Part shown: one piece after another, positions 42,446-64,000 of the stretch
How the letters are laid out: each line of letters starts with the position of its first letter
How positions within the stretch are numbered: position 1 is the first letter of the stretch
Source: a virus
Taxonomy: Duplodnaviria; Caudoviricetes
Direction: 5' to 3' (one strand)
Virus record (IMG/VR): IMGVR_UViG_3300021376_000006
DNA length: 64,000 nucleotides
Made by a program: the position numbers and the translations under genes
Notes under the pieces: model-generated
What the model saw: the letters and a program-made list of their open reading frames with translations, nothing else
What the model was told of the DNA's origin: nothing
The model's database searches: none

Positions 42446-42460
42446 AATCACTAACCAGTT
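42428..42460. repeat. Perfect 12-bp inverted repeat AACTGGTTAGTG / CACTAACCAGTT with a 9-nt loop containing TATAAT
   Basis: Read directly from the sequence; followed only by TTC, not a U-tract. Confidence 0.9.
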
Positions 42461-42474
42461 TCTACATCAAAATT

Positions 42475-42789
42475 ATGAATACTATCGACGATATTGTGAC
42501 CGAAGTTCGTAGGGCCACAGATTTTCAAATCAACAAGCAGATTCTACGCGAAAAAATTCAAACAGATCTACATATGACTCATCGCGGCGGCATGTTCAAA
42601 ATAACACCAGAACTTTTGGCATTTGTGAAAACATGGCCTGTAGACGAACTTTATCTTGAAGACATTTACCAAAATCCCGTTCAAATTGATCGTCAAACAT
42701 TTCTTGTAACTGCACAACAGCACTATCAAACAGTAATGAACACTTGGCATCAAGAATATGAAGAACTCAAAAAAATCAGAAAAATCTAG
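42475..42789 (+). CDS. Hypothetical protein, first gene of the modification island
   Basis: 104-aa ORF directly after the promoter, overlapping the next gene. Confidence 0.6.
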   Translation: MNTIDDIVTEVRRATDFQINKQILREKIQTDLHMTHRGGMFKITPELLAFVKTWPVDELYLEDIYQNPVQIDRQTFLVTAQQHYQTVMNTWHQEYEELKKIRKI

Positions 42790-43546
42790 AGGCATCGTGG
42801 CATTTGCTTACAATGTTGATACAATTGATTATGTGTCAATTGCCAAAAATATTTTAGAGTTGGCTAGTCAACTACTTGGAATTCCGTATACTTTAATTAC
42901 AGATAAAGAATTTGAAAATACAAATTACACAATGCGTTGTGACGTAGACACTGGCGAATTTATTAAGTGGCGCAATGTAGGAAGACATCATGCATACGAG
43001 TTATCACCATATGACGAAACTTTAGTGATTGATGTGGATTATTTGATATTGGACAACAATTTAAATAAAATTTTTGATGTTAATTGGGATTATTTACTAG
43101 CAAGAACAAGCACTGCCTTGACAACCACTTGGTCCAGTCAAATGGGAGAAACCAGTTTACCGTATGTTTGGGCCACAGTGTTTGCTTTCCGGAAAACACC
43201 TCGAGCTCAGATGTTTTTTGATCTTGTGGGAAGAATTCAAAGAAACTATGCCTACTATTGTGCTTTGTTTAATGTGCAAGAACGAAATTTTAGAAATGAC
43301 TATGCATTTGCCATGGCAGACATAATTTTAAATGGATACGCTCTATATAAAAAATCTATTCCGGGCAGCATATTGGCAGTGGATCAACCAATTGAAAGTA
43401 TTTGTTTGTCAAACAAAAAAGTCATTGTCAAAGATAAAAATAGAGCCTATGTGTTACCACGTACAAATTTACACATAATGAGCAAAACTTATTTGCAAAG
43501 CGATGACTGCCAACAGTTTATCAATCAGGTGCTTGATGAGTCATAA
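42758..43546 (+). CDS. GT-A fold (GT8-like) nucleotide-sugar transferase
   Basis: RGIVAFAYN, YELSPYDETLVIDVDY (DxD), FRNDYAF. Confidence 0.65.
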   Translation: MKNSKKSEKSRGIVAFAYNVDTIDYVSIAKNILELASQLLGIPYTLITDKEFENTNYTMRCDVDTGEFIKWRNVGRHHAYELSPYDETLVIDVDYLILDNNLNKIFDVNWDYLLARTSTALTTTWSSQMGETSLPYVWATVFAFRKTPRAQMFFDLVGRIQRNYAYYCALFNVQERNFRNDYAFAMADIILNGYALYKKSIPGSILAVDQPIESICLSNKKVIVKDKNRAYVLPRTNLHIMSKTYLQSDDCQQFINQVLDES

Positions 43547-44330
43547 AGCACAATTGGGATTCTTAACTGTTGCTTGCAACACCGAACATGTTGATTATCT
43601 TAGATTGGCTTATTTACAGGCTGTAAATGTCAAACAAACACAAAAGAACAATCAATATGCTGTGATAGTCGACAGTGCTACTCTAACTAAAGTTAGTGAA
43701 GATCACAAAAAAGTTTTTGATTACGTGATTGAAGCACCAGACCATGCATTTGGACCTTTTGGCACAGAAGCATTTGCATTTGAATTGACACCATTTAAAG
43801 AAACCATAAAACTAGAAAGCGATTTGTTATTTACAAGAAGTATAGACCATTGGGTACATGCATTTAGATTACGAGATATGGTACTAAGTGTTGGCAGTAG
43901 AAATTATCAACAACAAATATCCAATGTTAGAAATTATCGAAAAGCATTTGATGATAACAATTTGCCTGATGTATATAATGGGTTGATGTATTTTAGATTT
44001 ACCAAGACAGCACGAGATTTTTTTGACACAACAAAACAAATATATAGTAACTGGAACACAATTGTTAACGAGTTAAAAAATTGTAGAGAATCTGTACCCA
44101 GCACAGACGTTGTTTTTGCTTTGGCTGCACAAATTGTCGGACGAGAACTTTGCACATTACCAAGCGCAGACTTTATAAATTTTGTGCATATGAAGCCTGC
44201 TATTAACGGATTCAACGAAGATTTAAAATTCAGTGAAGTGTTTGTAACTGAACAGGACACAGATATGATTAGAATCAACAATATCAATCAATATCATCCT
44301 ATACATTATTATGATAAAGAATTTTTATGA
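43536..44330 (+). CDS. GT-A fold (GT8-like) nucleotide-sugar transferase paralogue
   Basis: DYLRLAY, FELTPFKETIKLESDLLF, STDVVFALA; start ATG 43536 preferred. Confidence 0.6.
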   Translation: MSHKAQLGFLTVACNTEHVDYLRLAYLQAVNVKQTQKNNQYAVIVDSATLTKVSEDHKKVFDYVIEAPDHAFGPFGTEAFAFELTPFKETIKLESDLLFTRSIDHWVHAFRLRDMVLSVGSRNYQQQISNVRNYRKAFDDNNLPDVYNGLMYFRFTKTARDFFDTTKQIYSNWNTIVNELKNCRESVPSTDVVFALAAQIVGRELCTLPSADFINFVHMKPAINGFNEDLKFSEVFVTEQDTDMIRINNINQYHPIHYYDKEFL

Positions 44331-44698
44331 GTGAAAATCTATGGGACGAAGTTGCTAGATTAGTGGCCGAGTATGATGCTGCTCGCCCAGTGATTACAAA
44401 AGAATATAGACTGTATTACAATCATGACGGAACCGTAATTGGACTTTGGGAGAGCAATCATCCCACCGGCGACAATTTTATTGTGTTAGATGATCCGGGC
44501 ATGTTTTATAGTGCAAATACTCTTTTACTACGAGTGCAAAATAAAAAATTAATTGTATTAGATCCGCGAGCACCTGCAAAAACACGATTACAAAAATCCA
44601 ATCAAGGATTTAGAGTAGTAAAAGGACATGCCGCTTTGATTTTAGAACAGGATGAAATCTATCCAGAAGTAGAATATTATGACCAAAAAAATAATTGA
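44327..44698 (+). CDS. Hypothetical protein
   Basis: 123-aa ORF with ATGA overlap. Confidence 0.55.
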   Translation: MSENLWDEVARLVAEYDAARPVITKEYRLYYNHDGTVIGLWESNHPTGDNFIVLDDPGMFYSANTLLLRVQNKKLIVLDPRAPAKTRLQKSNQGFRVVKGHAALILEQDEIYPEVEYYDQKNN

Positions 44699-45608
44699 TA
44701 TTGCAGATTTAGATTGTATCTTTTTAACTTATGACGAACCTAAAAAAGAAGAATTTTGGATTAGGATTCAAAACATGGTACCGTGGGCAAAGAGAGTTGA
44801 TGGAGTTAAAGGGTCTGATGCAGCGCATAAAGCAGCCGCTGCCGCGTCAGACACAGACCGTTTTGTTGTTATTGACGGAGACAATATTCCGGATCCAGAA
44901 TTTTTTAATCTACAACTATCGTTGGACGAGAGAAATCATGACCACGTTTTTAGGTGGAAGGCCAGGAATGCTGTAAACGGTTTAAGATATGGTAACGGTG
45001 GTGTAAGCTGCTGGACCAAGGATTTCGTTAATCGTATGCGAACACACGAAGCAAGTCTTGGGGATGAGGAAACTGCCGTTGAGTTTTGTTTTGATCCTAA
45101 GTATACAGCAATGCATAATTGTTATAGCACTACATATCCTAATGGTAGTTCCAAACAAGCATGGCGTGCAGGATTCCGTGAAGGTGTCAAGATGTGTCTT
45201 AACAGGGGACACAAGCCCACTCTACAAGAATTTGAAGAAGGTGTGAACAAAAGGAACTATGATAATTTATGTATATGGCACTCAGTGGGTGCAGATGTGG
45301 AAAATGGTTATTGGGCAATGTATGGAGCACGATTAGGCACATACATGATCATGCTTGAAGGGTGGGATCATCATTATGTTCAGGACTTTGACATGCTTGA
45401 AAAACTATGGACCAGTTTTAGTACTGAAGATCCTGAAGAAGGTTGTGCTAGGATCCAAGATGCATTAAAAAATAGATTAGGATTACCTATTGTTATGTAT
45501 ACACCAGAACAAAGTCAATTTTTTAAACATCACTACAGTATTGGGCAGCGTAATAGTGAAATTATGATGACTGAGATAGATGTAATTCGGAGGATCGAAG
45601 GATGGTAA
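44679..45608 (+). CDS. Glycosyltransferase-like (GT-A) protein
   Basis: DCIFLTYDEP, GVKGSDAAHKAAA, FVVIDGD (DxD), AWRAGFREGVK; paralogous to the C-terminal domain of 61987-63846. Confidence 0.55.
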   Translation: MTKKIIDIADLDCIFLTYDEPKKEEFWIRIQNMVPWAKRVDGVKGSDAAHKAAAAASDTDRFVVIDGDNIPDPEFFNLQLSLDERNHDHVFRWKARNAVNGLRYGNGGVSCWTKDFVNRMRTHEASLGDEETAVEFCFDPKYTAMHNCYSTTYPNGSSKQAWRAGFREGVKMCLNRGHKPTLQEFEEGVNKRNYDNLCIWHSVGADVENGYWAMYGARLGTYMIMLEGWDHHYVQDFDMLEKLWTSFSTEDPEEGCARIQDALKNRLGLPIVMYTPEQSQFFKHHYSIGQRNSEIMMTEIDVIRRIEGW

Positions 45609-46561
45609 TTTTAGAAAATAAAGACACACATATTTTTAATTTGCCTGAAAAAATTGTAGATATTGTACACGAGTATACAAATACCGGCAAAGTAATTATT
45701 ACAACTAACTCAGAAGGTTTGTGTCTTTTGTCGGCTAATTTTTATAATACATTAGATTATGTTTGCTCTAAATTTCAAATTAGTAAAAAATCAATTATTA
45801 TAAAAACTTGTAATGTAGAAGAATTTCATCCAGAATACACAATAAAAATTTTAGATAATTATTATATAGATAGTTGTAAGCCTTATTTAAAAGTTAAATT
45901 ATTACAAAAAAATCATCAGTTACATACTGTAGGTTGTTTTATAGGAAAGCCAAATTGGCATAGATTAATAATATCGGCATGGCTTTACACAAATTTTAAT
46001 AATAAAATTCTGTTAACGTGTCACTATAATCCGCAAGATGAAAGACATTTAATTGACAGCGAGTTAACAATGTTAAATCAACTAGCTTTTAACGAATTAT
46101 CTACAGTAATACCATATATGAAAAAATGTCCTGTGTATTTAGATGAAGGATTTTTAGATTATACTATTGGACCACCAACTCATTATAATTTATTGCAAAA
46201 GTACACTGACATATTTTTAGATTTAGTAGTCGAAACATATGTAACTGGTAAAACATTTTTTCCTACCGAAAAAACTCTAAGACCTATTATAGCAAAAACT
46301 CCTTTTATAATAATGGGTCCTCAAGGATATTTGTCTAATCTTAGAAGAATTGGATATAAAACTTTTTCAAATTGGTGGAGCGAAGATTATGACAATTTTA
46401 ATGGGTATCAACGAATTTTAGAAATTAAAAAAATTTTAGAAAATGTATTTACATGGCCACATAGTAAATTAAATGATACTTTAAATGAAATGAATAATGT
46501 ATTAGATCATAATAGAACGGTATTACAATATATGAAAGGTAGTGAAGTAAAACTGTCATGA
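45602..46561 (+). CDS. Putative GT-B glycosyltransferase (TEK-motif, GT10-like C-terminal domain)
   Basis: DLVVETY...FPTEKTLRPIIAKTPFIIMG...GYKTF..WWSEDYD; AT-rich; paralogue of 60714-61988. Confidence 0.45.
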   Translation: MVILENKDTHIFNLPEKIVDIVHEYTNTGKVIITTNSEGLCLLSANFYNTLDYVCSKFQISKKSIIIKTCNVEEFHPEYTIKILDNYYIDSCKPYLKVKLLQKNHQLHTVGCFIGKPNWHRLIISAWLYTNFNNKILLTCHYNPQDERHLIDSELTMLNQLAFNELSTVIPYMKKCPVYLDEGFLDYTIGPPTHYNLLQKYTDIFLDLVVETYVTGKTFFPTEKTLRPIIAKTPFIIMGPQGYLSNLRRIGYKTFSNWWSEDYDNFNGYQRILEIKKILENVFTWPHSKLNDTLNEMNNVLDHNRTVLQYMKGSEVKLS

Positions 46562-47940
46562 CAAAAAGTATCTTTCTCTCTTCTGCGGAGGCTATGCAAG
46601 AAAAATTAGGTCCTGCGCTTTGTCTTGCTAAATGGCAACAGGTCAGTCTACATCTTCCAACAGGACTAACTAACAGTTGCTATCACCCTCCACTACACGA
46701 AATAGATGCCGCACTATTGAAAGATAATCCCAGTGCGCTACACAATACACCACACAAAAAAGAACAGCGTAAAATTATGTTACGCAATGAACGACCGCAG
46801 GAGTGTAGTTATTGCTGGACACAAGAAGACCTAGGCAATTTAAGTGACAGGCATTATCGTTCAGGCGAACCCTGGGCAGCGGAACATTTTGATCGTATCA
46901 TCAACAGTACCGGAGACGAAGATGAAATTCCAAGTTATGTGGAAGTCAATTTTAATAACGCTTGCAACCTTAAGTGTAGCTATTGCAGCCCTCAGTTTAG
47001 CAGCACTTGGGCTGACGAAATTGCTAGGTACGGAGCGTATCCCACTAGTAATCGTCATAATGACCCCACTTTTTTTATGGACCGCAGAAGGCCTACGCCC
47101 AATCGTGAGGATAATCCTTATGTTAACGCTTTTTGGGAGTGGTGGCCAAGTCTTTATCCACGGTTAAAACACTTTCGAATGACCGGCGGCGAACCTTTAA
47201 TGGATCGTAATACCTATCGTGTATTTGATTATGTATTGGCTTTTCCTAAATCCGATTTGCACATTGATGTGACCAGCAATTTCAGTGTGGAAGAAAAGTT
47301 ATGGGAACAATACTTCAATTATGTAAAACAGTTGTGTAATACCAATATAGAGCATTTTATGCAGTATGTGAGTTTGGACTCTGGTATCCCGGAGCAAGCA
47401 GAATATATAAGACACGGGATGGAATTCAAACGAGTTTTAGCCAGGGTCGAATTTTTCTTAAGACACATACCCGGTCGCAATAGTCTTACATTTATTATTA
47501 CTATGAATAATCTAAGTGTTTTAGGTTTGCGAAGACAATTAGAAACCATTCTTTCATTGAGAAGATACCATAGTACAACATATCAACGTGTTTGGTTTGA
47601 CACACCAATATTGAGACAGCCCACGTGGCAAAGCTTACAAATACTTCCTTCTGTATATGCACGTCGATTGCAAGATGTAGTAGATTGGATGCAGGAAAAC
47701 TCGGAGACTGTTGAACGTCCGTTTCAAGGATTCAAAGATTATGAAGTGCAAAGAATGCAACGGGTTCTAGATTGGATGCAAGAAGGTAGCAAATTAGACG
47801 CTGAATATGTTAAACTACAACGTGCTGATTTTTATAAATTCTTTAGTGAGCACGATAAACGAAGAGGAACCTGGTTTCTAAATACATTTCCAGAAATGCG
47901 AGAGTTCTGGAACGAATGCCAATATCATGCCCAAAATTAA
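46558..47940 (+). CDS. Radical SAM protein with N-terminal twitch domain
   Basis: N-terminal CLAKW...SCYH...CSYCW, then CNLKCSYC and MTGGEP. Confidence 0.9.
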   Translation: MTKSIFLSSAEAMQEKLGPALCLAKWQQVSLHLPTGLTNSCYHPPLHEIDAALLKDNPSALHNTPHKKEQRKIMLRNERPQECSYCWTQEDLGNLSDRHYRSGEPWAAEHFDRIINSTGDEDEIPSYVEVNFNNACNLKCSYCSPQFSSTWADEIARYGAYPTSNRHNDPTFFMDRRRPTPNREDNPYVNAFWEWWPSLYPRLKHFRMTGGEPLMDRNTYRVFDYVLAFPKSDLHIDVTSNFSVEEKLWEQYFNYVKQLCNTNIEHFMQYVSLDSGIPEQAEYIRHGMEFKRVLARVEFFLRHIPGRNSLTFIITMNNLSVLGLRRQLETILSLRRYHSTTYQRVWFDTPILRQPTWQSLQILPSVYARRLQDVVDWMQENSETVERPFQGFKDYEVQRMQRVLDWMQEGSKLDAEYVKLQRADFYKFFSEHDKRRGTWFLNTFPEMREFWNECQYHAQN

Positions 47941-55837: not shown

Positions 55838-55892
55838 ATATAGACGTAAACTACGAGAACTTCGTAAACGCGATCCATTTATTTACAAATGA
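55791..55892 (+). CDS. Unannotated 33-aa basic peptide (MNWLRNLWNRVQLEIRYRRKLRELRKRDPFIYK)
   Basis: AAGGA RBS upstream; ends in an ATGA overlap with the 55889 start; fills the intergenic gap. Confidence 0.7.
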   Translation: MNWLRNLWNRVQLEIRYRRKLRELRKRDPFIYK

Positions 55893-56557: not shown

Positions 56558-57201
56558 TCCATGCAATAGGAGATAGTTTCACATACGGTGACGAACTTGA
56601 GTGTAAAAACTTAGCGTGGCCTACGATCTTGTCTAATAAATTACATAAACATGTGGCCAATTTAGGAAGACCTGCAAGTGGAAATACACGTATAGTTAAA
56701 AGATTGATTCACTGTGTTTTAGACAAAAGTGATTTAGTTATTATTGGATGGTCAGATTGTAATAGACAGGAATTTGCCGACGAAATTGGAGTGTATGATA
56801 TATGGGCCGGTAGAAATTACAGAGCCATACAATTAGATGATCCCACCCATCGAATTAATTTAATCAAGTATATAACTGCATACGATGTGCCTGAGTACTA
56901 TTATGCCAATTGGTTAAGACAAATTTTATTGGCTCAAAGTTTTTGTGAAGTTCATAATGTTCCTTGTGTTATGTTTATTGCTTGTGGTTCTCATCAAAGT
57001 CATCAAATTTATCATTCCAAGCACAAAACCTTGATTGATGCAATAGATCATTCAATGTTTGTTGATGGTATGTTTACAAGTGTAGGAGAATGGACCTACG
57101 GTTTGCCACATGGACCCGGTGGCCATCCACTTGAACAAGGCCATGAAATTATAGCAGAAAAAATTTATGAACATATTAGGAATAAGTGCTGGCTTTCATG
57201 A
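56554..57201 (+). CDS. SGNH-hydrolase-like protein
   Basis: AIGDSFTYG, PASGN, GHPLEQGH; start at ATG 56554 (ATGA overlap). Confidence 0.6.
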   Translation: MIHAIGDSFTYGDELECKNLAWPTILSNKLHKHVANLGRPASGNTRIVKRLIHCVLDKSDLVIIGWSDCNRQEFADEIGVYDIWAGRNYRAIQLDDPTHRINLIKYITAYDVPEYYYANWLRQILLAQSFCEVHNVPCVMFIACGSHQSHQIYHSKHKTLIDAIDHSMFVDGMFTSVGEWTYGLPHGPGGHPLEQGHEIIAEKIYEHIRNKCWLS

Positions 57202-58648
57202 CGCTGCTGCCGCAGTAATCAATCGCCAAGGCGATATACTGTATGCAGCGCATAGCGAACGTTACAGCCGGGTCAAAAACGATGCCAATCTTTGTCGTGC
57301 CATGATGGATGATATCATGGATCAGTTTCCTATTGCTCATGTTGCATATTATGAAACTCCGTGGAAGAAACAATTACGAAGATTGTACAGTGAAGAAGGT
57401 ATAGAGTGGAATCGTTTATCTACTCGAAGGATCTTGACAGAACAGTTTGGCAGATGGGCACATATTCCCAGTTACAGTAGTCATAATCATCACATGAGTC
57501 ATGCAGCAGCCGGCTTCCAAACAAGTCCATACAATCGCGCAACAGTAGTAGTCATTGACGCAATTGGTGAGTGGGACACTGTTAGCATATGGGGCGCGGA
57601 GTACGACAGTCGTGGAATAGCCCAATATAAACGACTATGGGGTCAACGATATCCTCATAGTATAGGATTGTTTTATAGCGCAATGACTCAAAGAGTAGGA
57701 TTAAAACCTAACGAAGATGAATACATTTTAATGGGTATGAGCGCATATGGAAGAAACGGTTATGCCAGCACACTACAAGATGAGTTGATTGTAAACGAAT
57801 GGGAAACTACATTTAAACAAAATTTACATGTTGGTATTACAAATGATTTTTTAACAGATGTGCATGACGCAGATTTAGCAGCAGCAGCACAAAAAGTTTT
57901 AGAAAGATTGGTATACAATGTGATGCGTCGAGCAAGAGATTTTGCGTGGAGTGCAAATCTTGTTTATATGGGTGGTGTAGCATTAAACTGTTTGGCAAAT
58001 AGAAACCTTGGAGAATACTTTGAAAATATTTGGATTATGCCTAATCCTGGTGATGCTGGTAGCAGTCTTGGCGCTGCCGCTCTCGCTTATGGGCGTCGTG
58101 TTAATTGGGTCGATGCTTATCTGGGCCACGATATTCCGGGACCATATCCCGTTACACCCATACTTGATAGTTTATTATCTGACGGTATTTGCGGTGTTGC
58201 TAGTGGTCGTGCAGAGTTTGGTCCCCGTGCTTTAGGTAATAGAAGTTTATTAGCGGACCCAAGAGGACCTAACATCAAGGATCGAGTAAATGAAATTAAA
58301 CGCAGACAAAAATTCAGACCTTTTGCCCCTGTCATATTGGAGGAGATGGCTGATCAGTACTTTGATTTCCGCAACGGGTGGCCTAATAGCCGTTATATGC
58401 AGTCAGTCGCTCATTGTTGGTATCCTAGCCGTTTTCCTGCTATCTGCCATGTTGATGGGACCAGTCGAGTACAAACGGTACCAGCAGACGGTTCGGGCAT
58501 CAGACAATTATTGGAAAAATGGTTTGTAATGACTGACTGCCCTATGCTACTAAACACAAGTTTAAATATCAAAGGTGAGCCAATGGTAAATGATCGAGAC
58601 GACGCAGATAGATTTGAAAGTAAATACGGTGTAAAGGTATTTTCATGA
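57167..58648 (+). CDS. Carbamoyltransferase, NodU/CmcH family
   Basis: GFHDAAAA, HHMSHAA, GGVALNC, EFGPRALGNRSLLADP, FRPFAP, HVDGTSRVQTV, LLNTSLN. Confidence 0.95.
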   Translation: MNILGISAGFHDAAAAVINRQGDILYAAHSERYSRVKNDANLCRAMMDDIMDQFPIAHVAYYETPWKKQLRRLYSEEGIEWNRLSTRRILTEQFGRWAHIPSYSSHNHHMSHAAAGFQTSPYNRATVVVIDAIGEWDTVSIWGAEYDSRGIAQYKRLWGQRYPHSIGLFYSAMTQRVGLKPNEDEYILMGMSAYGRNGYASTLQDELIVNEWETTFKQNLHVGITNDFLTDVHDADLAAAAQKVLERLVYNVMRRARDFAWSANLVYMGGVALNCLANRNLGEYFENIWIMPNPGDAGSSLGAAALAYGRRVNWVDAYLGHDIPGPYPVTPILDSLLSDGICGVASGRAEFGPRALGNRSLLADPRGPNIKDRVNEIKRRQKFRPFAPVILEEMADQYFDFRNGWPNSRYMQSVAHCWYPSRFPAICHVDGTSRVQTVPADGSGIRQLLEKWFVMTDCPMLLNTSLNIKGEPMVNDRDDADRFESKYGVKVFS

Positions 58649-59349
58649 GAGTGTTAACAAATGGCTGTAGCTTTAGCAGAGGTCCTGATAGTTGGCCGCA
58701 TGCTTTACAATCAATGTATAATTTTGAATTGATAAATCTCGCACAGTCCGGTGCTGGTAATACTTATATTTTTGAATCTACAGTTACAGAATTATCATTA
58801 AGAAATTACGATGCAGTTATTATTATGTGGTCTCAACCACATAGAATAGATTACAGAACCGTAAAGAATTTTAACACCATTTTTACTTCAAATTTTCAGC
58901 ACAAGCAAAACGATTGGCCTGAAAAAATAATACATCCAGTTAATGATCAAGACTTTGTTCAAAAAGATTGGATTTTTGGTTGTGGGTATTTAAATAACGA
59001 TAAAGAATGTATGAATTTGTTTGATTCATACTATAAGAATGTAAGTTATAATCAAATGGTAGACTCTTTCCTCATAAAGATAATTTCTTTACAAAGTATA
59101 CTAATGCAGCTGGGGGTATTATATATATTTACTTTTTATCAAGATTATGTTTTAGACTTAAAAAGTATAAATGAAAATCTATATAATTTAATCAATTGGA
59201 CGAATTGTTGTACAACAAATAATATATACAGTATCACTAAAAAAAATAATTGGTTTGATAAAGATAAAATACATCCAGGCAAATTAGCTCATTATGAATG
59301 GGCACTAGAACTTAAAAAACATATAAAAGATAAAAAATTAGATTTCTAA
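58645..59349 (+). CDS. SGNH-hydrolase-like protein
   Basis: TNGCSFSRG, QSGAGN, DKIHPGKLAH; AT-rich. Confidence 0.6.
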   Translation: MRVLTNGCSFSRGPDSWPHALQSMYNFELINLAQSGAGNTYIFESTVTELSLRNYDAVIIMWSQPHRIDYRTVKNFNTIFTSNFQHKQNDWPEKIIHPVNDQDFVQKDWIFGCGYLNNDKECMNLFDSYYKNVSYNQMVDSFLIKIISLQSILMQLGVLYIFTFYQDYVLDLKSINENLYNLINWTNCCTTNNIYSITKKNNWFDKDKIHPGKLAHYEWALELKKHIKDKKLDF

Positions 59350-59368
59350 AAAATGGTGAGGTTTTTTC

Positions 59369-59800
59369 ATGACAACTAGAATTCTTATAATGGGATTGCC
59401 CGGAGCAGGCAAAACTACGCTTGCAATAAATTTATTAAACTATTTTAGTCCGGATGTTCTCTGGTTAAATGCAGATGAAATAAGAAAAAAATTTAATGAT
59501 TGGGATTTCAGCTATGAAGGACGAATTCGTCAAAGCCGACGAATGAGAGAAATAGCAGATGTTTCAAACAAAGATTATGTAATTGCAGATTTTGTTTGTC
59601 CCCTAAAAGAAATGCGCGACATTTACGATCCGCACTTTTTGATTTGGGTAGATACAATAGCAGAGGGTAGATTTGAAGATACTAATCGTGTGTTTCTTCC
59701 GCCCGAAACACACGATGTAAGAGTGACCGAGCAAGATGCAGGTCGATGGGCAAGGACAATATATGAACAAATATCACATAAGATTCAATCACCAACATAA
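59369..59800 (+). CDS. Adenylylsulfate-kinase-like (CysC-like) P-loop kinase
   Basis: GLPGAGKTT, WLNADEIR, RIRQSRRM, VIADFVCP, FEDTNRVFLPP. Confidence 0.75.
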   Translation: MTTRILIMGLPGAGKTTLAINLLNYFSPDVLWLNADEIRKKFNDWDFSYEGRIRQSRRMREIADVSNKDYVIADFVCPLKEMRDIYDPHFLIWVDTIAEGRFEDTNRVFLPPETHDVRVTEQDAGRWARTIYEQISHKIQSPT

Positions 59801-60338
59801 TAGCAATGGTAAAGTTTGGCGTGTGTTCGAGAATGGAGTAGAACATTTAGTTGAACACCTAGATATCCGTGTTCCTATGCGCGACGATGTCACTGTTGAA
59901 AACGGTGTTGAAAAATGGAATGTTTATTGTGAAGGTTATTTGTCTATTGTAAATCAAACTGCTTGTATAGAATCAGTACCTACATTTGATTGGCGAAAAC
60001 CCACAGTGCAAATGTTAGGTCGTTGGCAACCGTGGCATGCAGGGCATCGTGCATTATTTGAAAGAGCAATAAAGAAAACCGGACAAGTGTGTATTATGAT
60101 AAGAGATTGCCAAGGATGGAATCACAGTAATCCGTTTAATCTTGAAGAAGTTAAAAAGTATATTCGTGCTGATCTTGATCCCGAGTATAAAGGACGATAT
60201 GAAATCATTGTTGTTCCTAATATAGTTAATATTACATATGGTCGTGATGTTGGTTACCTCATCGAAGAAGAAACATTTGACGATGTTACACAGGCTATAT
60301 CAGCAACCACTATACGAAAACAAATGGGCATCGAATGA
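59763..60338 (+). CDS. HIGH-motif (cytidylyltransferase-like) nucleotidyltransferase with an extra N-terminal domain
   Basis: MLGRWQPWHAGH (HxGH), ISATTIR (KMSKS-like); about 70 unrelated residues at the N-terminus; start at ATG 59763 preferred. Confidence 0.75.
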   Translation: MNKYHIRFNHQHNSNGKVWRVFENGVEHLVEHLDIRVPMRDDVTVENGVEKWNVYCEGYLSIVNQTACIESVPTFDWRKPTVQMLGRWQPWHAGHRALFERAIKKTGQVCIMIRDCQGWNHSNPFNLEEVKKYIRADLDPEYKGRYEIIVVPNIVNITYGRDVGYLIEEETFDDVTQAISATTIRKQMGIE

Positions 60339-60808
60339 AAGACAAATTTAAACGTGCCTACATGAAAACAGCACAAACGTTTGCAGAACTTAGTTTGGCA
60401 CGTAGATTGAAAGTTGGAGCTATTATTGTCAAAGATGACAGAATTATTTCAATTGGCTATAATGGAATGCCTGCTGGTTGGGATAACAATTGCGAGGATG
60501 AATTGGTAACTGAATACAATAACGCTAAAGATTTGGACGGTAATACAATACAAGTGAAAACTTCTACACTAACCACCAAACCAGAAGTCCTGCATGCTGA
60601 AACCAATGCTATTGCCAAATTAGCAAAATCGCCAGAATCTGGACAAGGTGCTACAATGTTTGTAACACATAGTCCTTGTTTAGAATGTGCAAAATTGATA
60701 TATCAATCAGGTATTACCAAGGTTGTATATAGAGATTTGTATCGAAATAAAAACGGTTTAAATTTTCTAGAAAAGTCTGGTCTAGAGCTTGAGCAATTGC
60801 TGAATTGA
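60335..60808 (+). CDS. cd: dCMP deaminase
   Basis: VGAIIVKD, GYNG, HAETNAI, SPCLECAK. Confidence 0.92.
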   Translation: MKDKFKRAYMKTAQTFAELSLARRLKVGAIIVKDDRIISIGYNGMPAGWDNNCEDELVTEYNNAKDLDGNTIQVKTSTLTTKPEVLHAETNAIAKLAKSPESGQGATMFVTHSPCLECAKLIYQSGITKVVYRDLYRNKNGLNFLEKSGLELEQLLN

Positions 60809-61988
60809 GATTTGTTTGTAATTCGTTCCATATTTGATCAACAAAGTGTTTACTGTAAAACAAATTGTAATTGTACTCAAGAACTTCCTCCATGTCATAT
60901 AACATTTTTTCTAAATCATTATTTGATAGTTTGCTTAAACTTTTTATTATATCAACGACCATATCGATTCGCTCAATTGGATCTTGGCATTGATCATAAC
61001 TTTCATCCCACCATTTGTCAAATGTTATAAATCCGTATTCTTTTAAGTATGCAAGATTGTCAACACACCCTAACAATATAAAAGGCTGTTTCAACGCTAT
61101 AGGTTTAAAAATTTTTTCAGTTAAATGTTTCTTGCGTTCCCAGAAACAGGTTTCTGTAACAACATGAACAAAACTTTGCATCAATTTTGGAATAGGCTCA
61201 AGAGTAAAACTTGAATTGTCAATAGGCATATTGTGCTCACTATCAATTCTTAGACTTGGAAGATTGGTTATATAATCTAATTCTTGGAAAACAAATTTTT
61301 TGTCTAACCCAAACTGTTCTAATGTTTTGACAATTGAGAACTGTAATTTACCGTGAACTGGACAAACATTACTAAAACTTATATGGCCATAATCTAATAG
61401 ATTTTGTTGACTGAGTTTAGCGACAAAAAAAGCTCTATAAATTCTAGAATTGCCAGTTATCCTATTAAATGTAATAAATTTTTTTTCTATTTTTCTTTTT
61501 CGTATTGGTATAATTTCACTACAGAATTGATAACCTCGGTACCAATCTATTGCTGCTAGGGCATGGTAAAAATAGTAACAATCAATATAATTAAATTTTT
61601 CTAAAATTTTATTTTTTTCGTCACTATCTTTTTCTGTGTTAAGTAGTATAGTAGGAACTTTGTCTTTATATTTTAATGATCTGTATTTTAAAGATATATC
61701 ATTTTTCCAATATTGACTATATTGTGTAGATTCTTTGATTTGTTGACTGCCATTGGAAGTTACAGTCAAATTATCAAATTTTGAAAAAGTGTCAAAGTTA
61801 TAATGGTAGTTTAAAGGTTCTTGATCAAAACACAGAAAAAATACATCAGGGTCGGTTGTACCTAATATTTCAAGCTGTGAGAACGCAGTTGCACCAAACG
61901 GAAAGAAGTAAGCAAGTTTTGGCGATATATCGTAGTTTATTTTTGCATGTTGTAGAATAAAATTATAGTGGCTGTTTATATTATACAT
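60714..61988 (-). CDS. Putative GT-B glycosyltransferase (TEK-motif), antisense to its neighbours
   Basis: HVVTETCF...LTEKIFKPIALKQPFILLG...GFITFDKWWDESYD; AT-rich. Confidence 0.5.
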   Translation of the reverse strand: MYNINSHYNFILQHAKINYDISPKLAYFFPFGATAFSQLEILGTTDPDVFFLCFDQEPLNYHYNFDTFSKFDNLTVTSNGSQQIKESTQYSQYWKNDISLKYRSLKYKDKVPTILLNTEKDSDEKNKILEKFNYIDCYYFYHALAAIDWYRGYQFCSEIIPIRKRKIEKKFITFNRITGNSRIYRAFFVAKLSQQNLLDYGHISFSNVCPVHGKLQFSIVKTLEQFGLDKKFVFQELDYITNLPSLRIDSEHNMPIDNSSFTLEPIPKLMQSFVHVVTETCFWERKKHLTEKIFKPIALKQPFILLGCVDNLAYLKEYGFITFDKWWDESYDQCQDPIERIDMVVDIIKSLSKLSNNDLEKMLYDMEEVLEYNYNLFYSKHFVDQIWNELQTNLNSAIAQALDQTFLENLNRFYFDTNLYIQPW

Positions 61989-63846
61989 GTTTGATGTCTT
62001 TTATTCTGGGGAAAAACCAAATTTGTTTGCGTTCGAAAGACCAGCTGACTGTTTGGAAGATGCTGCTAAAAAAAGTAGAACTAAATTCTACTGGTATATT
62101 TATGACTGCAACGACTATACAAATTTTGATTTTGCGTGGCGTCCTGCTCCTTGGGAAGCACATCATGTACACTGTTTTGGAACACAGTGGCAACGTACCG
62201 GCGGTGCATATTTTGCAAATGTAGATACCGTAAACAATAGAGAATGGCATTTTAGAACAGAGCAAAAAGTCACACGCTGTGTTGAGAAAAATAAGTGGAT
62301 TGTTCCCGGCAATATAGATGATAGCCAATTTGATTATAGTTGGCACCCTGATGAATTAGAACCTGATTATGAATATCATTTTCCAACGCAATGGCAGCGA
62401 GATGGTGGCCCTGTATATCCGGGTACCGCAGGCATCAAGTATGTGAACGATCAACATATACGCAATGGCGCCACCCAGATATTTTATATGGATTTTCTAA
62501 ATCAAGAAAGCCCGGAACAATTTGCTCGTATACAAAAACAATATCCCGATGCAAAAAGCACCAGGTATGTTGACAGTCATTTAAACGTTTTTAAACGTAT
62601 TGCCAATTTGGCAACTACAGAGTTTGTTTGGATTATTAGTAGCTTCTGTGATTATAGAGAATTTGATTTTACGTGGCATCCTGCTCCTGAACAGAGAGAA
62701 ATGATACATGTGTTTCCTACAGCATGTGAAAATTTTAAATACAAATTTCAAAAAAGAGGCGATACCTTTTACATTCATATACCGTCTCTTAAAACACAGT
62801 TGTACGAATTAGAATTATTGGATTGGTTTAATGTAATTAATTATTGTAGTGATCAAATTGTTCCTGTGAAAGCACCTATCATTGAATACAACAATGACAG
62901 TTTGATTCCTGCTGTACAAGCATATAATTTTCAATTTCCTTATGCCATATTTAAGACTCAAAAATTTCCAATAGGCCCAATCTGTGTGCCACCATGTTTA
63001 TGGCATCCAAAAGATCGTATTGCAGAACCACTAAATTCGTCGGGTAGCACGACTATTGTACCTAGAGAAGCCAGGGCACATATCAAGACACAATTGTATG
63101 ATTATCCGTATATTAATAGACGTTCAGACGCATTTTATACAGACCAACCGCTGGATATCGTGTATATTAGTAACGGCGAGCCTGATGCAGAACGCTGGTA
63201 CAATCATCTAAAGGTAACAGTAGAAGCACAGATACCACATGGTCAACAAAAGATACACAGAGTGCAAAACGTTAATGGGCGTATTGCTGCATATCATACC
63301 GCAGCGCAAGCAAGCACATCACCATGGTTCTTCGCTGTTTTTGCTAAGTTAGAAATATTAGGTAGTTTTGATTTTATTTGGCAACCTGATTATTGGCAAG
63401 AACCCAAGCATTACATATTCCATAGTCGTAATTGCCTAAATGGACTAGAGTATGGTCATATGGGTGTGATTGCCTATAATAAGCGATTGGTATTGGAAAC
63501 AATTGAATCTGGTCTTGACTTTACACTGAGTCAAAAACACACGGTAGTTCCTGAACTAAGTGCCATTGCTTATTTCAATGCCGATCCTTGGATGACTTGG
63601 CGCACTGCATTCAGAGAAGTCCTAAAGTTAAAATTGTTTATGGAAACTGAACCTACAGTAGAAACAGAATACAGACTAGATACTTGGCTTAATGTGGCCA
63701 ATGGGGATAATGCAGAATGGTGTTTACGTGGTGCTCAAGACGCAGTTGAATATTACAAAGAAGTTGATGGCGAGTATGATAAGTTAATGCTAAGTTTTGA
63801 TTGGCCTTGGCTGTCACAAAGATTTAAGAATCTATATAAAATTTAA
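61987..63846 (+). CDS. Multi-repeat glycosyltransferase-like protein
   Basis: Four FD(F/Y)xW(R/H/Q)P-centred repeats; C-terminal LDIVYISNGEP...AYHTAA...TWRTAFREVLK paralogous to 44679-45608. Confidence 0.55.
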   Translation: MFDVFYSGEKPNLFAFERPADCLEDAAKKSRTKFYWYIYDCNDYTNFDFAWRPAPWEAHHVHCFGTQWQRTGGAYFANVDTVNNREWHFRTEQKVTRCVEKNKWIVPGNIDDSQFDYSWHPDELEPDYEYHFPTQWQRDGGPVYPGTAGIKYVNDQHIRNGATQIFYMDFLNQESPEQFARIQKQYPDAKSTRYVDSHLNVFKRIANLATTEFVWIISSFCDYREFDFTWHPAPEQREMIHVFPTACENFKYKFQKRGDTFYIHIPSLKTQLYELELLDWFNVINYCSDQIVPVKAPIIEYNNDSLIPAVQAYNFQFPYAIFKTQKFPIGPICVPPCLWHPKDRIAEPLNSSGSTTIVPREARAHIKTQLYDYPYINRRSDAFYTDQPLDIVYISNGEPDAERWYNHLKVTVEAQIPHGQQKIHRVQNVNGRIAAYHTAAQASTSPWFFAVFAKLEILGSFDFIWQPDYWQEPKHYIFHSRNCLNGLEYGHMGVIAYNKRLVLETIESGLDFTLSQKHTVVPELSAIAYFNADPWMTWRTAFREVLKLKLFMETEPTVETEYRLDTWLNVANGDNAEWCLRGAQDAVEYYKEVDGEYDKLMLSFDWPWLSQRFKNLYKI

Positions 63847-64000
63847 TTTGTTCTACAATTGTTTCAACTTCGCTATCTAAAAGTTCGGGATAGATAGGCA
63901 GGCTAAGACATTCTCGAGTAAAGGCAGCAGTTTCTGTGAATAAATCTTTTCCGTAATCTATGTAATTAAATCCTACACCTAAATCATACAGAGCAGATTC
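63824..64000 (-). CDS. C-terminus of a DegT/DnrJ/EryC1/StrS sugar aminotransferase (partial)
   Basis: Minus-strand frame from 64000 reads ESALYDLG...RECLSLPIYPELLDSEVETIVEQIKFYIDS*; LSLPIYPEL is the typical DegT C-terminal motif. Confidence 0.75.
   Translation of the reverse strand, partial: ESALYDLGVGFNYIDYGKDLFTETAAFTRECLSLPIYPELLDSEVETIVEQIKFYIDS

What the first reader, a model, noticed from the sequence alone, without database searches (positions are those of the whole stretch)
42475..64000. ~21.5-kb phage-encoded glycan/hypermodification biosynthetic island
A largely co-oriented, overlap-coupled block holds 4 GT-A-like and 2 TEK-motif GT-B-like genes, 5 twitch radical SAMs, 5 SGNH-like genes, a carbamoyltransferase, a P-loop kinase, a HIGH nucleotidyltransferase, dCMP deaminase and a DegT aminotransferase, and it continues past the window edge. 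This is the toolkit for activated, aminated, acylated, carbamoylated sugars plus radical chemistry, i.e. a natural-product-like pathway in a virus. It directly follows the tail fibres, which suggests virion or fibre glycosylation or host-surface remodelling; DNA hypermodification is the alternative. The product is unknown.
Basis: partly seen in the sequence, partly recalled or inferred. Interest (0 to 1): 0.75.

Follow-up and report, generated by a model that had tools for sequence, protein, structure and literature searches.

The report
Jumbo-phage radical-SAM sugar-tailoring gene block
Right behind its tail-fibre genes, an uncultured ~338-kb freshwater phage carries a conserved block of soluble sugar-transferring and sugar-decorating enzymes, including five radical SAM enzymes of a family with no known reaction, which most likely builds an unusual decorated sugar chain whose target is still unknown.

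Summary
From 42475 to the window edge lie 23 ORFs plus one missed 33-codon gene. Twenty-two are on the + strand, and 20 of 21 junctions in the + strand run overlap or abut.

All five radical SAMs score above the curated cut-off of NCBIfam NF033640 (N-terminal twitch radical SAM, no known reaction). Five genes are SGNH/DUF6071 paralogues. One is a NodU/CmcH-type carbamoyltransferase. The glycosyltransferase calls rest on weak remote evidence.

The block is syntenic in more than 100 IMG/VR contigs, three of them 97-100% complete genomes of 338-374 kb. Its invariant core is g1-g3, g5, five radical SAMs, g13, the 33-aa peptide and the carbamoyltransferase.

The peptide ends in DPFIYK. It follows the carbamoyltransferase, not the radical SAMs, in phages and in true bacteria.

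In one bacterium, four tandem NF033640 genes sit inside an O-polysaccharide locus.

No island protein has a transmembrane segment. Complete relatives have one canonical ThyA and no TET/JBP.

My reading is a cytoplasmic sugar or glycan tailoring pathway, with a virion protein as the most likely acceptor (unproven). DNA hypermodification is unlikely, and the dCMP deaminase is probably a bystander. This scan already reported the same block on another phage genome.

The parts
39792..41417 (+). u2, tail-fibre protein with C-terminal autoproteolytic chaperone domain (context, conserved upstream neighbour)
   Evidence: Pfam Peptidase_G2 E 5e-7. Syntenic with the block in relatives.
41433..42410 (+). 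u3, Ser/Thr/Asn/Gly-rich fibre-like protein directly upstream; candidate acceptor (inference only)
   Evidence: Sequence composition. Always precedes g1 in relatives.
42475..42789 (+). g1, conserved 104-aa protein of unknown function
   Evidence: No Pfam or PHROG hit. Present in 36 of 36 loci spanning u3 to g7.
42758..43546 (+). g2, GT-A-like (GT8-like) putative glycosyltransferase, paralogue of g3
   Evidence: hhalign to g3 98.6%. Present in 36 of 36 loci.
43503..44330 (+). g3, GT8-like putative glycosyltransferase
   Evidence: Profile matches glycogenin at E 0.003 over the nucleotide-binding half. Homologues lie beside the same carbamoyltransferase in Streptomyces and a Clostridia MAG (150-174 bits).
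44327..44698 (+). g4, small conserved protein of unknown function
   Evidence: No family hit. Syntenic but divergent.
44679..45608 (+). g5, GT-A-fold protein with an IDGDN (DxD-like) motif
   Evidence: AlphaFold model pLDDT 79. All top structural matches are GT-A or NDP-sugar transferases at Z 6-7. The top Foldseek hit is the PBCV-1 capsid glycosyltransferase. Present in 36 of 36 loci.
45602..46561 (+). g6, TEK-motif protein, paralogue of g22 (variable copy number in relatives)
   Evidence: hhalign to g22 99.9%. Variable in relatives.
46558..47940 (+). g7, N-terminal-twitch radical SAM (NF033640)
   Evidence: 307 bits against a cut-off of 170.
47927..49282 (+). g8, N-terminal-twitch radical SAM (NF033640)
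   Evidence: 286 bits. It is the one paralogue type kept in Ralstonia phage RsoM2USA (49% identity).
49279..50745 (+). g9, N-terminal-twitch radical SAM (NF033640)
   Evidence: 387 bits. Pfam finds SPASM at residues 41-104, before Radical_SAM at 150-314.
50732..51946 (+). g10, N-terminal-twitch radical SAM (NF033640)
   Evidence: 336 bits.
51947..52672 (+). g11, SGNH/DUF6071-like paralogue with Cys at the nucleophile position (GCSF); rare in relatives
   Evidence: Hit by the g15 profile at 2e-20. Motif read from the sequence.
52662..53951 (+). g12, N-terminal-twitch radical SAM (NF033640)
   Evidence: 280 bits.
53920..55020 (+). g13, invariant core protein: cyclophilin-like barrel with a helical insert, function unknown
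   Evidence: Model pLDDT 86. No Foldseek match in the PDB. Cyclophilin-like at Z 7-8. Present in 93 of 94 loci.
54998..55837 (+). g14, SGNH/DUF6071-like paralogue (GDSF)
   Evidence: Profile cross-hits to g15, g16 and g18.
55791..55892 (+). pep33, unlisted 33-codon gene for a very basic peptide ending in DPFIYK; obligate partner of the carbamoyltransferase
   Evidence: Present in 94 of 94 loci spanning g7 to g17 and in 134 of 139 loci with g17. There are 91 distinct variants and 298 cluster representatives in 1.84 billion proteins. It is also present in RsoM2USA, and an equivalent small ORF lies directly before the carbamoyltransferase start in true bacteria.
55889..56557 (+). g15, DUF6071 / SGNH-like
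   Evidence: PF19547 53 bits against a cut-off of 27. The bacterial carbamoyltransferase is almost always next to a homologue.
56536..57201 (+). g16, DUF6071 / SGNH-like
   Evidence: PF19547 32 bits.
57167..58648 (+). g17, NodU/CmcH-type carbamoyltransferase
   Evidence: Carbam_trans_N 133 bits and Carbam_trans_C 157 bits. Bacterial homologues are 44-52% identical.
58645..59349 (+). g18, SGNH/DUF6071-like paralogue with Cys at the nucleophile position
   Evidence: Hit by the g15 profile at 2.5e-27.
59369..59800 (+). g19, small P-loop kinase (APS-kinase/PSTK-like), substrate unknown; variable
   Evidence: Pfam APS_kinase 8e-8. PDB matches PSTK and APS kinase. Fused to g20 in some relatives.
59736..60338 (+). 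g20, HxGH nucleotidyltransferase domain (NMNAT/cytidylyltransferase superfamily), substrate unknown; variable
   Evidence: phrog_10255 4e-25. NCBIfam NMNAT-type hits lie below their cut-offs. PDB 2qjt E 8e-4.
60335..60808 (+). g21, dCMP deaminase; probably nucleotide metabolism rather than part of the pathway
   Evidence: PF00383 84 bits. Present in 37 of 83 loci. ThyA and DHFR lie nearby in a relative.
60714..61988 (-). g22, TEK-motif protein, possibly GT10-like; the only minus-strand gene inside the block
   Evidence: hhalign to g6. Atlas lead to GT10 at 0.80, and structural neighbours are fused to sugar dehydratase or methyltransferase domains.
61987..63846 (+). g23, four FDFxW.P-type N-terminal repeats plus a C-terminal g5-like GT-A domain
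   Evidence: hhalign of g5 to g23 residues 375-590, 99.5%. Conserved in relatives.
63847..64000 (-). C-terminal ~50 codons of a DegT/DnrJ/EryC1 sugar aminotransferase (gene runs off the window)
   Evidence: Reverse translation read by me. The full orthologue L083:15907-17007 scores 259 bits on PF01041 and is followed by an SDR epimerase/dehydratase.

Best explanation
The block is a cytoplasmic pathway, probably expressed late in infection (inferred), that assembles and heavily decorates a sugar chain, or a sugar-containing product, on a soluble acceptor.

The steps are inferred from family membership:
1. DegT and the adjacent SDR, just past the window edge, make an NDP-amino-deoxyhexose. The kinase and nucleotidyltransferase pair may activate a further building block.
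2. The GT-A-like proteins (g2, g3, g5, g23) and the TEK-motif proteins (g6, g22) transfer sugars.
3. The five NF033640 radical SAM paralogues each perform a distinct radical tailoring step on sugar carbons. By analogy with BtrN, BlsE and MoaA-type enzymes this could be oxidation, epimerisation, deoxygenation, decarboxylation or C-C bond formation.
4. The SGNH/DUF6071 paralogues add or remove O-acyl groups.
5. The NodU/CmcH-type carbamoyltransferase, working with the 33-aa DPFIYK peptide as an accessory subunit (like the SxtK peptides beside other carbamoyltransferases), O-carbamoylates a hydroxyl.

The enzymes are all soluble and the block is welded to the tail-fibre genes in every relative. 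The most likely acceptor is therefore a phage-made protein such as the Ser/Thr-rich fibre protein u3. This would be virion glycosylation of the kind seen in chloroviruses and mycobacteriophages.

Shown here: gene content, family memberships, conservation, the peptide-carbamoyltransferase linkage, and one bacterial O-polysaccharide context for the radical SAM family.

Inferred: every reaction, the order of steps and the acceptor.
For: - Family memberships.
- Synteny in more than 100 viral contigs. Core genes are present in 93-94 of 94 loci and 36 of 36 loci.
- DegT and an SDR dehydratase/epimerase lie directly downstream in the closest relative.
- In a 2.9-Mb Pseudomonadota genome, four tandem NF033640 genes lie between RmlC-RmlD-Wzm-Wzt and TylF-like methyltransferase, methyltransferase and WbsX glycosyltransferase genes. 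That is an ABC-transporter-type O-polysaccharide locus.
- In Bacteroidota, the family's neighbours include GDSL enzymes, methyltransferases, a carbamoyltransferase and a GT2.
- The nearest solved radical SAMs act on sugars or nucleotides: the BtrN twitch domain, MoaA, viperin and BlsE.
- Bacterial homologues of g17 sit beside DUF6071, the DPFIY peptide and sometimes a g3-like gene, together with DegT and other small-molecule or sugar tailoring enzymes.
- g5 has a GT-A fold, and its top Foldseek hit is the PBCV-1 capsid glycosyltransferase.
- No island protein has a transmembrane segment.
- The block always follows the fibre genes u2 and u3.
Against: - No glycosyltransferase in the block reaches a curated family threshold. 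The GT calls rest on E 0.003, Z 6-7 and a shared motif.
- No reaction is known for NF033640.
- The Bacteroidota contexts are rich in tailoring enzymes but poor in glycosyltransferases (1 of 49 ORFs).
- The Streptomyces and Clostridia contexts of the carbamoyltransferase module look like small-molecule clusters, so the product may be a free metabolite rather than a protein-linked glycan.
- Adjacency to fibre genes is the only evidence for a virion acceptor.
- The T4 late-promoter motif TATAAATA does not occur in the block, so late expression is inferred only from co-orientation with the structural genes.
Confidence: 0.55

Rival explanations
1. The pathway makes a free, sugar-derived small molecule, such as an aminoglycoside-like or nucleoside-like metabolite or a modified nucleotide-sugar, that acts in the infected cell or is released at lysis. 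It does not make a protein-linked glycan.
For: - The carbamoyltransferase/DUF6071/peptide/g3-like module recurs in bacterial clusters that look like small-molecule pathways. In Streptomyces it sits with a luciferase-like monooxygenase, an AMP-binding enzyme, a PLP decarboxylase and DegT. In a Clostridia MAG it sits with a TruD-like enzyme, a methyltransferase and an Asn-synthase-like enzyme.
- The nearest solved radical SAMs act on small molecules.
- All island enzymes are soluble.
Against: - Six putative transferases per block suggest an oligosaccharide rather than a compact metabolite.
- The strict linkage to fibre genes in all relatives is not explained.
- There is no exporter or self-resistance gene in the block.
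Confidence: 0.17
2. The enzymes remodel the host's envelope glycans (LPS, capsule or S-layer glycan) during infection, for example to block superinfection or adsorption of progeny to debris.
For: - In one bacterium the radical SAM family lies in an O-polysaccharide locus.
- Carbamoyltransferases and glycosyltransferases are common in cyanophage genomes. The idea that such genes alter the host surface is my recollection, not tested here.
Against: - No transmembrane protein, initiating phosphoglycosyltransferase, flippase, polymerase or ABC exporter is present in the block.
- The genes are co-oriented and tightly packed with structural genes rather than with early genes.
Confidence: 0.1
3. The 33-aa peptide is a ribosomally made precursor or scaffold. 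The five twitch radical SAMs, the carbamoyltransferase and the transferases modify it into a peptide-derived product (RiPP-like, as in mycofactocin or PQQ).
For: - SPASM and twitch radical SAMs often mature peptides.
- The peptide is invariant in the core and has an absolutely conserved C-terminal DPFIY(K).
- Mycofactocin is a precedent for a C-terminal Tyr-derived product that is later glycosylated (established knowledge, not tested here).
Against: - The peptide tracks the carbamoyltransferase, not the radical SAMs. It is present in loci with the carbamoyltransferase and no radical SAM (L143, L151, L152, L158). In bacteria that lack NF033640 genes nearby, an equivalent ORF lies directly before the carbamoyltransferase start.
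- Eight of nine radical SAM arrays without a carbamoyltransferase (L072, L073, L075-L077, L080-L082) lack it. L079 does carry one.
- True DUF5989/SxtK peptides with a PFIY tail occupy the same position before other carbamoyltransferases.
- There is no protease or leader-recognition (RRE) domain in the block.
Confidence: 0.07
4. The block hypermodifies phage DNA, with glycosylation and carbamoylation of hydroxymethylated pyrimidines or another base.
For: - Carbamoyltransferases, glycosyltransferases and radical SAMs occur in known phage DNA hypermodification clusters (recalled literature, not re-read here).
- A dCMP deaminase lies in the block.
Against: - Three 97-100% complete relatives that carry the block have a single canonical ThyA (349-365 bits), no Tet_JBP and no TGT/DpdA hit. 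DHFR lies beside ThyA in the closest relative (L083), which fits ordinary dTMP synthesis.
- The dCMP deaminase is present in only 37 of 83 loci.
- Bacterial contexts of both the radical SAM family and the carbamoyltransferase module are sugar or metabolite clusters.
Confidence: 0.06

Closest known systems
NCBIfam NF033640, N_Twi_rSAM (twitch domain-containing radical SAM protein)
   Same: All five radical SAMs score 280-387 bits against a cut-off of 170. They share the permuted order, with a 4-Cys twitch domain before the CxxxCxxC core.
   Different: The family has no characterised member. Here it forms an invariant five-paralogue tandem array, and complete relatives carry 7-12 copies per genome. 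In bacteria it was found in only about 0.5-1% of genomes sampled in two phyla (2 of 401 and 4 of 401), and in none of 401 in a third.
Virus-encoded virion glycosylation (chlorovirus PBCV-1 A064R and partners; mimivirus fibril sugar clusters; mycobacteriophage capsid/tail glycosyltransferases)
   Same: Soluble virus-encoded transferases lie beside structural genes. Amino-deoxy-sugar synthesis (DegT plus a dehydratase) is encoded by the virus. The top Foldseek match of g5 is the PBCV-1 capsid glycosyltransferase.
   Different: To my knowledge, none of those systems is described with radical SAM enzymes, SGNH arrays or a carbamoyltransferase. No acceptor has been shown here.
Aminoglycoside and nucleoside-antibiotic sugar tailoring sets (BtrN, BlsE, TobZ/NodU-type carbamoyltransferases, DegT aminotransferases)
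   Same: The combination is the same: twitch-type radical SAM, O-carbamoyltransferase and sugar aminotransferase. The N-terminal domain aligns to the BtrN twitch domain and the core to MoaA, BlsE and viperin.
   Different: Sequence similarity is remote (E 1e-5 to 1e-8 on parts only). The domain order is permuted. The host is a phage. Bacterial relatives of the carbamoyltransferase module lack the five-radical-SAM array.
SxtK / Pfam DUF5989 small proteins beside SxtI-type carbamoyltransferases
   Same: It is a small ORF directly upstream of a NodU/CmcH-type carbamoyltransferase, with an N-terminal amphipathic Trp/Leu stretch, a basic RKK-like patch and a PFIY motif at the C-terminus. SxtJ and SxtK are uncharacterised (PMC2885083).
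   Different: The DUF5989 HMM does not match. hhalign aligns only the six-residue motif. pep33 lacks the transmembrane helix of DUF5989 and is replaced there by a highly basic helix.
Ralstonia phage RsoM2USA ORFs 199-203 (cultured jumbo phage)
   Same: It has a minimal version of the core: one g8-type NF033640 radical SAM (49% identity), three DUF6071 genes, an unannotated DPFIYK peptide and the carbamoyltransferase (45% identity).
   Different: There is no five-fold radical SAM array, no g13 and no g1-g5 or g22-g23 transferases nearby. All of these genes are annotated as hypothetical, and the published description does not mention them (PMC8504454).

Membership tests
NF033640 N_Twi_rSAM | Score above the curated cut-off (170 bits) over the full model | tested here: met
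   g7 307, g8 286, g9 387, g10 336 and g12 280 bits, covering about positions 1-397 of 398.
NF033640 N_Twi_rSAM | N-terminal Cys-rich twitch domain before the radical SAM core; CxxxCxxC and a GGEP SAM motif | tested here: met
   Invariant C41, C59, C101, C104, C155, C159, C162 and G220-G221-E222 in a 16-sequence alignment of paralogues. Pfam places SPASM before Radical_SAM. The N-terminal domain aligns to the BtrN twitch domain.
NodU/CmcH/TobZ-type carbamoyltransferase | Both Carbam_trans_N and Carbam_trans_C domains above the gathering score | tested here: met
   133 and 157 bits against cut-offs of 24 and 27.
NodU (nodulation equivalog NF041651) | Equivalog cut-off of 1000 bits | tested here: not met
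   128 bits. It is a member of the superfamily, not a NodU orthologue.
SGNH hydrolase / Pfam DUF6071 | DUF6071 gathering score; block I GDS motif; C-terminal HP...H block | tested here: met
   g15 scores 53 and g16 32 bits against a cut-off of 27. g11, g14 and g18 are linked by profile cross-hits. GDSF is present in g14-g16 and GCSF in g11 and g18. The Pfam GDSL families themselves score below their cut-offs.
GT-A glycosyltransferases (GT8 / GT2-like) for g2, g3, g5, g23 | Curated family match, GT-A Rossmann-like fold and a DxD motif | tested here: inconclusive
   No Pfam or NCBIfam hit. The g3 profile matches glycogenin at E 0.003. The g5 model resembles GT-A structures at Z 6-7 over about 120-130 residues. 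DxD-like motifs are visible in the sequences.
GT10-type (fucosyltransferase-like) for g6 and g22 | PF00852 match; conserved TEK-type nucleotide-sugar motif; GT-B fold | tested here: inconclusive
   No Pfam hit and no sequence match in the PDB. The TEK motif is invariant in both families. The Atlas lead to GT10 reaches only 0.80. I did not model the fold.
SxtK / DUF5989 | Match to PF19451; transmembrane helix; position before a carbamoyltransferase; C-terminal PFIY | tested here: not met
   No HMM match at E<=10 to the window's peptide, two relatives' peptides or three complete relatives. hhalign aligns only the motif. There is no hydrophobic helix. Position and PFIY motif are shared. It resembles SxtK but cannot be filed as a member.
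RiPP precursor plus radical SAM maturase system | Precursor peptide co-inherited with its maturase; leader-recognition element or protease | tested here: not met
   The peptide co-occurs with the carbamoyltransferase in loci and bacteria that lack the radical SAMs. No RRE or protease family was found in the block.
Phage DNA hypermodification clusters (5-hydroxymethylpyrimidine-based) | A dNMP hydroxymethylase (second ThyA homologue) or a TET/JBP dioxygenase in the genome | tested here: not met
   One ThyA of 349-365 bits and no Tet_JBP in three 97-100% complete relatives. DHFR lies beside ThyA in the closest relative, L083. The window's own full genome could not be searched.
Lipid-linked surface polysaccharide pathways (Wzx/Wzy or ABC type) | Initiating phosphoglycosyltransferase, flippase or ABC transporter; membrane proteins | tested here: not met
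   No such family in the block. The maximum 19-residue hydropathy is <=1.78, so no clear transmembrane segment exists.
Virus-encoded virion glycosylation | A virion protein carrying the glycan | not testable with these tools
   Only adjacency to the fibre genes and soluble enzymes. This needs glycoproteomics.

The most novel reading that the evidence does not exclude
A whole lineage of freshwater jumbo phages uses five dedicated radical SAM enzymes of an uncharacterised family, plus a peptide-assisted carbamoyltransferase, to build a radical-tailored, carbamoylated and acylated glycan on its tail fibres. This would be a type of virion glycan chemistry with no described counterpart. The DPFIY peptide would then define a previously unrecognised universal small subunit, or tethered substrate, of a large branch of bacterial and phage carbamoyltransferases.
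Probability: 0.2. Interest if true: 0.9.

Novelty: new variant of a known kind. Interest (0 to 1): 0.68.

Why it matters
Virus-encoded glycan synthesis is known from giant algal and amoebal viruses and from a few phages. Radical SAM chemistry has not, to my knowledge, been tied to it.

Here an uncharacterised radical SAM family (NF033640) forms an invariant five-gene array in more than 100 phage contigs, and the family is expanded to 7-12 copies per genome. That makes this phage lineage the richest natural source of the family.

The single bacterial O-polysaccharide context gives a concrete substrate class to test.

The 33-aa DPFIY peptide is a missed gene in phages and in bacteria (Sorangium, Reyranella, Actinosynnema and Cystobacter). 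Its strict pairing with one branch of carbamoyltransferases may explain what SxtK-like peptides do.

A cultured phage, RsoM2USA, carries a minimal version of the core, so the chemistry is experimentally reachable.

If the product decorates the fibres, it bears on host recognition and on evasion of receptor-blocking defences in freshwater phage-host systems.

Tried and rejected
**No result or not available**
- No whole genome is held for the window.
- Megablast of the block against cultured phages found nothing.
- An exact look-up of my g23 ORF was not on record.
- Profile searches of g5, g13, g23, g22 and g6 against PDB sequences gave only noise.
- Foldseek of the g13 model against the PDB gave no match. 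Only cyclophilin-like similarity at Z 7-8 came from VIA and the Atlas.
- The Atlas feature search for g13 gave nothing.
- Sequencing-run search: no RNA holder was listed, so expression was not examined.

**No verdict**
- Complex prediction of the carbamoyltransferase with the 33-aa peptide returned no verdict (score 0.00). I do not use it either way.

**Tested and negative**
- Pfam DUF5989 did not match the peptide, and hhalign aligned only the PFIY motif.
- The T4 late-promoter motif TATAAATA is not found in the block (2 matches in the window against 8.4 expected).

**Literature**
- Searches for twitch radical SAMs in phages, for carbamoyltransferase with radical SAM in jumbo phages, and for DPFIYK found nothing relevant.
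- The RsoM2USA paper does not mention the module.

**Rejected readings**
- RiPP-type maturation of the peptide, because the peptide tracks the carbamoyltransferase.
- Hydroxymethylpyrimidine DNA hypermodification, because relatives have no hydroxymethylase or TET.
- Lipid-linked envelope glycan synthesis, because there are no membrane components.

Full report
**What the window is.** The window comes from a T4-like myophage. It holds an SbcCD-type gp46/gp47 pair, baseplate hub proteins and a gp6-type baseplate wedge, followed by a 4,229-aa protein and fibre genes. No whole genome is held. The window's g10 protein is on record on a contig of 337,915 bp and in a JGI freshwater sample, so this is a jumbo phage. 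No cultured phage is close at the DNA level.

**Checking the observation.** Between 42475 and 63846 there are 23 ORFs, 22 of them on the + strand. In the run g1 to g21, 20 of 21 junctions overlap or abut.
- Pfam, PHROGs and NCBIfam confirm five radical SAMs, two DUF6071/SGNH proteins, a two-domain carbamoyltransferase, a P-loop kinase, an HxGH nucleotidyltransferase and a dCMP deaminase.
- The last 150 bases encode, on the minus strand, the C-terminus of a DegT aminotransferase. The full orthologue in the closest relative scores 259 bits.
- Profile cross-searches add three more SGNH/DUF6071 paralogues (g11, g14, g18). They also show the paralogue pairs g2/g3, g6/g22 and g5/g23 C-terminus.
- The glycosyltransferase labels are the weakest part. 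The g3 profile matches glycogenin at E 0.003. The g5 model (pLDDT 79) matches only GT-A and NDP-sugar transferase folds, at Z 6-7. g6 and g22 have an invariant TEK motif and a sub-threshold Atlas lead to GT10.

**The radical SAMs.** The reversed order of SPASM-like and radical SAM domains is not an artefact. All five proteins are full-length members of NCBIfam NF033640, 'twitch domain-containing radical SAM protein', at 280-387 bits against a cut-off of 170. An alignment of the five paralogues and eleven relatives keeps four N-terminal Cys, the CxxxCxxC triad and GGEP invariant. Against solved structures, the N-terminal domain aligns to the twitch domain of BtrN, and the core aligns to MoaA, viperin, BlsE and SkfB. 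I found no paper on this family.

**Conservation.** Two scans of IMG/VR returned 160 loci. The order u2-u3-g1-g2-g3-(g4)-g5-[g6/g18 variable]-g7-g8-g9-g10-g12-g13-[SGNH variable]-g17-[g19, g20, g21 variable]-g22(-)-g23 recurs throughout.
- Among 94 loci spanning g7 to g17, g8, g9, g10, g12 and g13 are each present in 93.
- Among 36 loci spanning u3 to g7, g1, g2, g3 and g5 are present in all.
- Three relatives are 97-100% complete genomes of 338-374 kb. They carry 7-12 NF033640 genes each: the five-gene array plus dispersed copies.
- In the closest relative, the block ends about 2 kb past the window's edge with DegT and an SDR epimerase/dehydratase. A canonical ThyA (358 bits) and DHFR follow.

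**The missed gene.** I tested it.
- It has an AAGGA ribosome-binding site and an ATGA overlap with g15.
- It is present in 94 of 94 loci spanning g7 to g17 and in 134 of 139 loci with the carbamoyltransferase.
- There are 91 distinct protein variants, all keeping a basic helix and the C-terminal DPFIY(K).
- A profile search of 1.84 billion cluster representatives found 298 clusters.

The peptide goes with the carbamoyltransferase, not with the radical SAMs.
- It is there in phage loci that have the carbamoyltransferase but no radical SAM array (L143, L151, L152, L158).
- It is absent from eight of nine radical SAM arrays that lack the carbamoyltransferase. L079 is the exception.
- It is present, unannotated, in Ralstonia phage RsoM2USA.
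- In true bacteria (a complete Sorangium chromosome, Reyranella, Actinosynnema, Cystobacter and Magnetococcales), a small basic ORF ending in DPFIY lies directly before the start of the homologous carbamoyltransferase.

Two other first-reader notes suggested likeness to SxtK/DUF5989.
- The DUF5989 model (PF19451) does not match the peptide, and hhalign aligns only the PFIY motif.
- Genuine DUF5989 genes that I retrieved (L201, L202) sit in the same position before another carbamoyltransferase. They share the N-terminal Trp/Leu stretch, the RKK patch and the PFIY tail, and differ in having a transmembrane helix.
- SxtJ and SxtK are uncharacterised (PMC2885083).
- I therefore read the peptide as a transmembrane-less functional analogue of SxtK, an accessory of the carbamoyltransferase, without filing it in DUF5989.

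**What the bacterial relatives say.**
- The g17-type carbamoyltransferase in bacteria is almost always flanked by a DUF6071 gene. In Streptomyces and a Clostridia MAG it is also flanked by a g3-like gene. The neighbours there include DegT, an AMP-binding enzyme, a PLP decarboxylase, a luciferase-like monooxygenase, a TruD-like enzyme and a methyltransferase.
- NF033640 is rare in bacteria: 2 of 401 sampled genomes of one phylum, 4 of 401 of Bacteroidota, and 0 of 401 of a third phylum. Several of these genomes again carry it in multiple adjacent copies.
- In one 2.9-Mb genome, four copies lie between RmlC-RmlD-Wzm-Wzt and TylF-like methyltransferase, methyltransferase and WbsX glycosyltransferase genes. 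This is a textbook ABC-transporter O-polysaccharide locus.
- In Bacteroidota, the neighbours are further radical SAMs, PhyH-type dioxygenases, methyltransferases, GDSL enzymes, one carbamoyltransferase and one GT2.
- These contexts tie both halves of the phage core to sugar or metabolite tailoring.

**Weighing the readings.**
- A sugar or glycan tailoring pathway is the reading that best fits all parts: DegT and SDR, six putative transferases, SGNH enzymes, the carbamoyltransferase, and a radical SAM family found in an O-polysaccharide locus.
- The acceptor is open. No island protein has a transmembrane segment, and there is no initiating transferase, flippase or exporter. That argues against ordinary lipid-linked surface glycan synthesis and for a cytoplasmic acceptor.
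- The invariable position behind the fibre genes favours a virion protein, as in chloroviruses and mycobacteriophages. That is adjacency only.
- A free sugar-derived metabolite is the main rival, given the Streptomyces-type contexts.
- DNA hypermodification is unlikely. Complete relatives have one canonical ThyA, no Tet_JBP and no TGT hit, and DHFR lies beside ThyA in the closest relative. The dCMP deaminase is dispensable (37 of 83 loci).
- RiPP-type maturation of the peptide is unlikely, for the co-occurrence reasons given above.

**Novelty and earlier work.** I found no publication on this block, on NF033640 chemistry or on the DPFIY peptide. Within this scan, a follow-up report on another ~345-kb phage (e1-5391093) described the same kind of block and the invariant peptide and reached a similar reading. 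My analysis is independent of it. It adds the bacterial O-polysaccharide context, the peptide-carbamoyltransferase pairing in true bacteria, the direct DUF5989 comparison and the tests against DNA hypermodification. I rate the finding a new variant of a known kind (virus-encoded glycan or sugar tailoring), with uncharacterised chemistry at its centre.

Noticed in passing
window 42416-42460: Between u3 and g1 lies TTTACA-N18-TATAAT, with the -10 box in the loop of a perfect 12-bp inverted repeat (AACTGGTTAGTG / CACTAACCAGTT). It could be a promoter with an operator, or a T-tract-less terminator hairpin after the fibre gene.
   Followed up: partly
window 51947-52672 and 58645-59349: Two of the five SGNH/DUF6071 paralogues (g11 and g18) have Cys instead of Ser at the block I nucleophile position (GCSF against GDSF). 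This suggests a thioester-forming or otherwise altered catalytic variant.
   Followed up: no
window 2490-3605 (-) and 4110-5615 (-): Two further radical SAM genes of other subfamilies lie in the replication and recombination region next to gp46/gp47. One is similar to the tungsten-cofactor maturase (59 bits). The other has a C-terminal Radical_SAM domain (67 bits). A SegE-type GIY-YIG endonuclease lies at 1473-1898.
   Followed up: no
G001-G003 (complete relatives behind L004, L014, L017): Each complete 338-374-kb relative carries 7-12 NF033640 radical SAM genes: the five-gene array plus single copies scattered over the genome. This is a lineage-specific expansion of a family that is rare in bacteria.
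   Followed up: partly
L166 and L168 (two contigs of 183 kb and 148 kb in one Haliscomenobacter MAG): Both contigs carry the phage block at 66-69% identity, and the MAG has 12 NF033640 hits. They look like jumbo-phage contigs binned with a Bacteroidota MAG. That could be a binning artefact or a hint at the host.
   Followed up: no
L001:14026-14136 (Ralstonia phage RsoM2USA, between ORF201 and ORF200): An unannotated 36-codon ORF ending in DPFIYK lies in a cultured jumbo phage. It is flanked by three DUF6071 genes, one NF033640 radical SAM and the carbamoyltransferase, all annotated as hypothetical.
   Followed up: partly
L214 (G108:C19:1-20000): A bacterial O-polysaccharide locus holds four tandem NF033640 radical SAM genes directly after wzm-wzt. 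In the stop-to-stop frame, the Wzt ATPase with its Wzt_C domain and the first radical SAM read as one 856-aa ORF, which could be a fusion.
   Followed up: partly
window 61987-63200 (g23 N-terminal half): Four copies of an FDF/FDY-x-W-x-P motif are spaced about 100-130 residues apart, ahead of the g5-like domain. In relatives the protein varies from about 530 to 1,520 aa, so the repeat region expands and contracts.
   Followed up: no
window 59369-60338: The kinase (g19) and nucleotidyltransferase (g20) overlap by 65 nt here and are fused into one protein of about 285 aa in some relatives. The domain order, kinase then HxGH transferase, resembles PAPS synthase more than NadR, but the transferase domain is only about 115 aa.
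   Followed up: partly
window, whole: The T4 late-promoter core TATAAATA occurs only twice in 64 kb (8.4 expected by chance). Neither copy is in the block, so this T4-like phage probably uses a different late-promoter motif.
   Followed up: no
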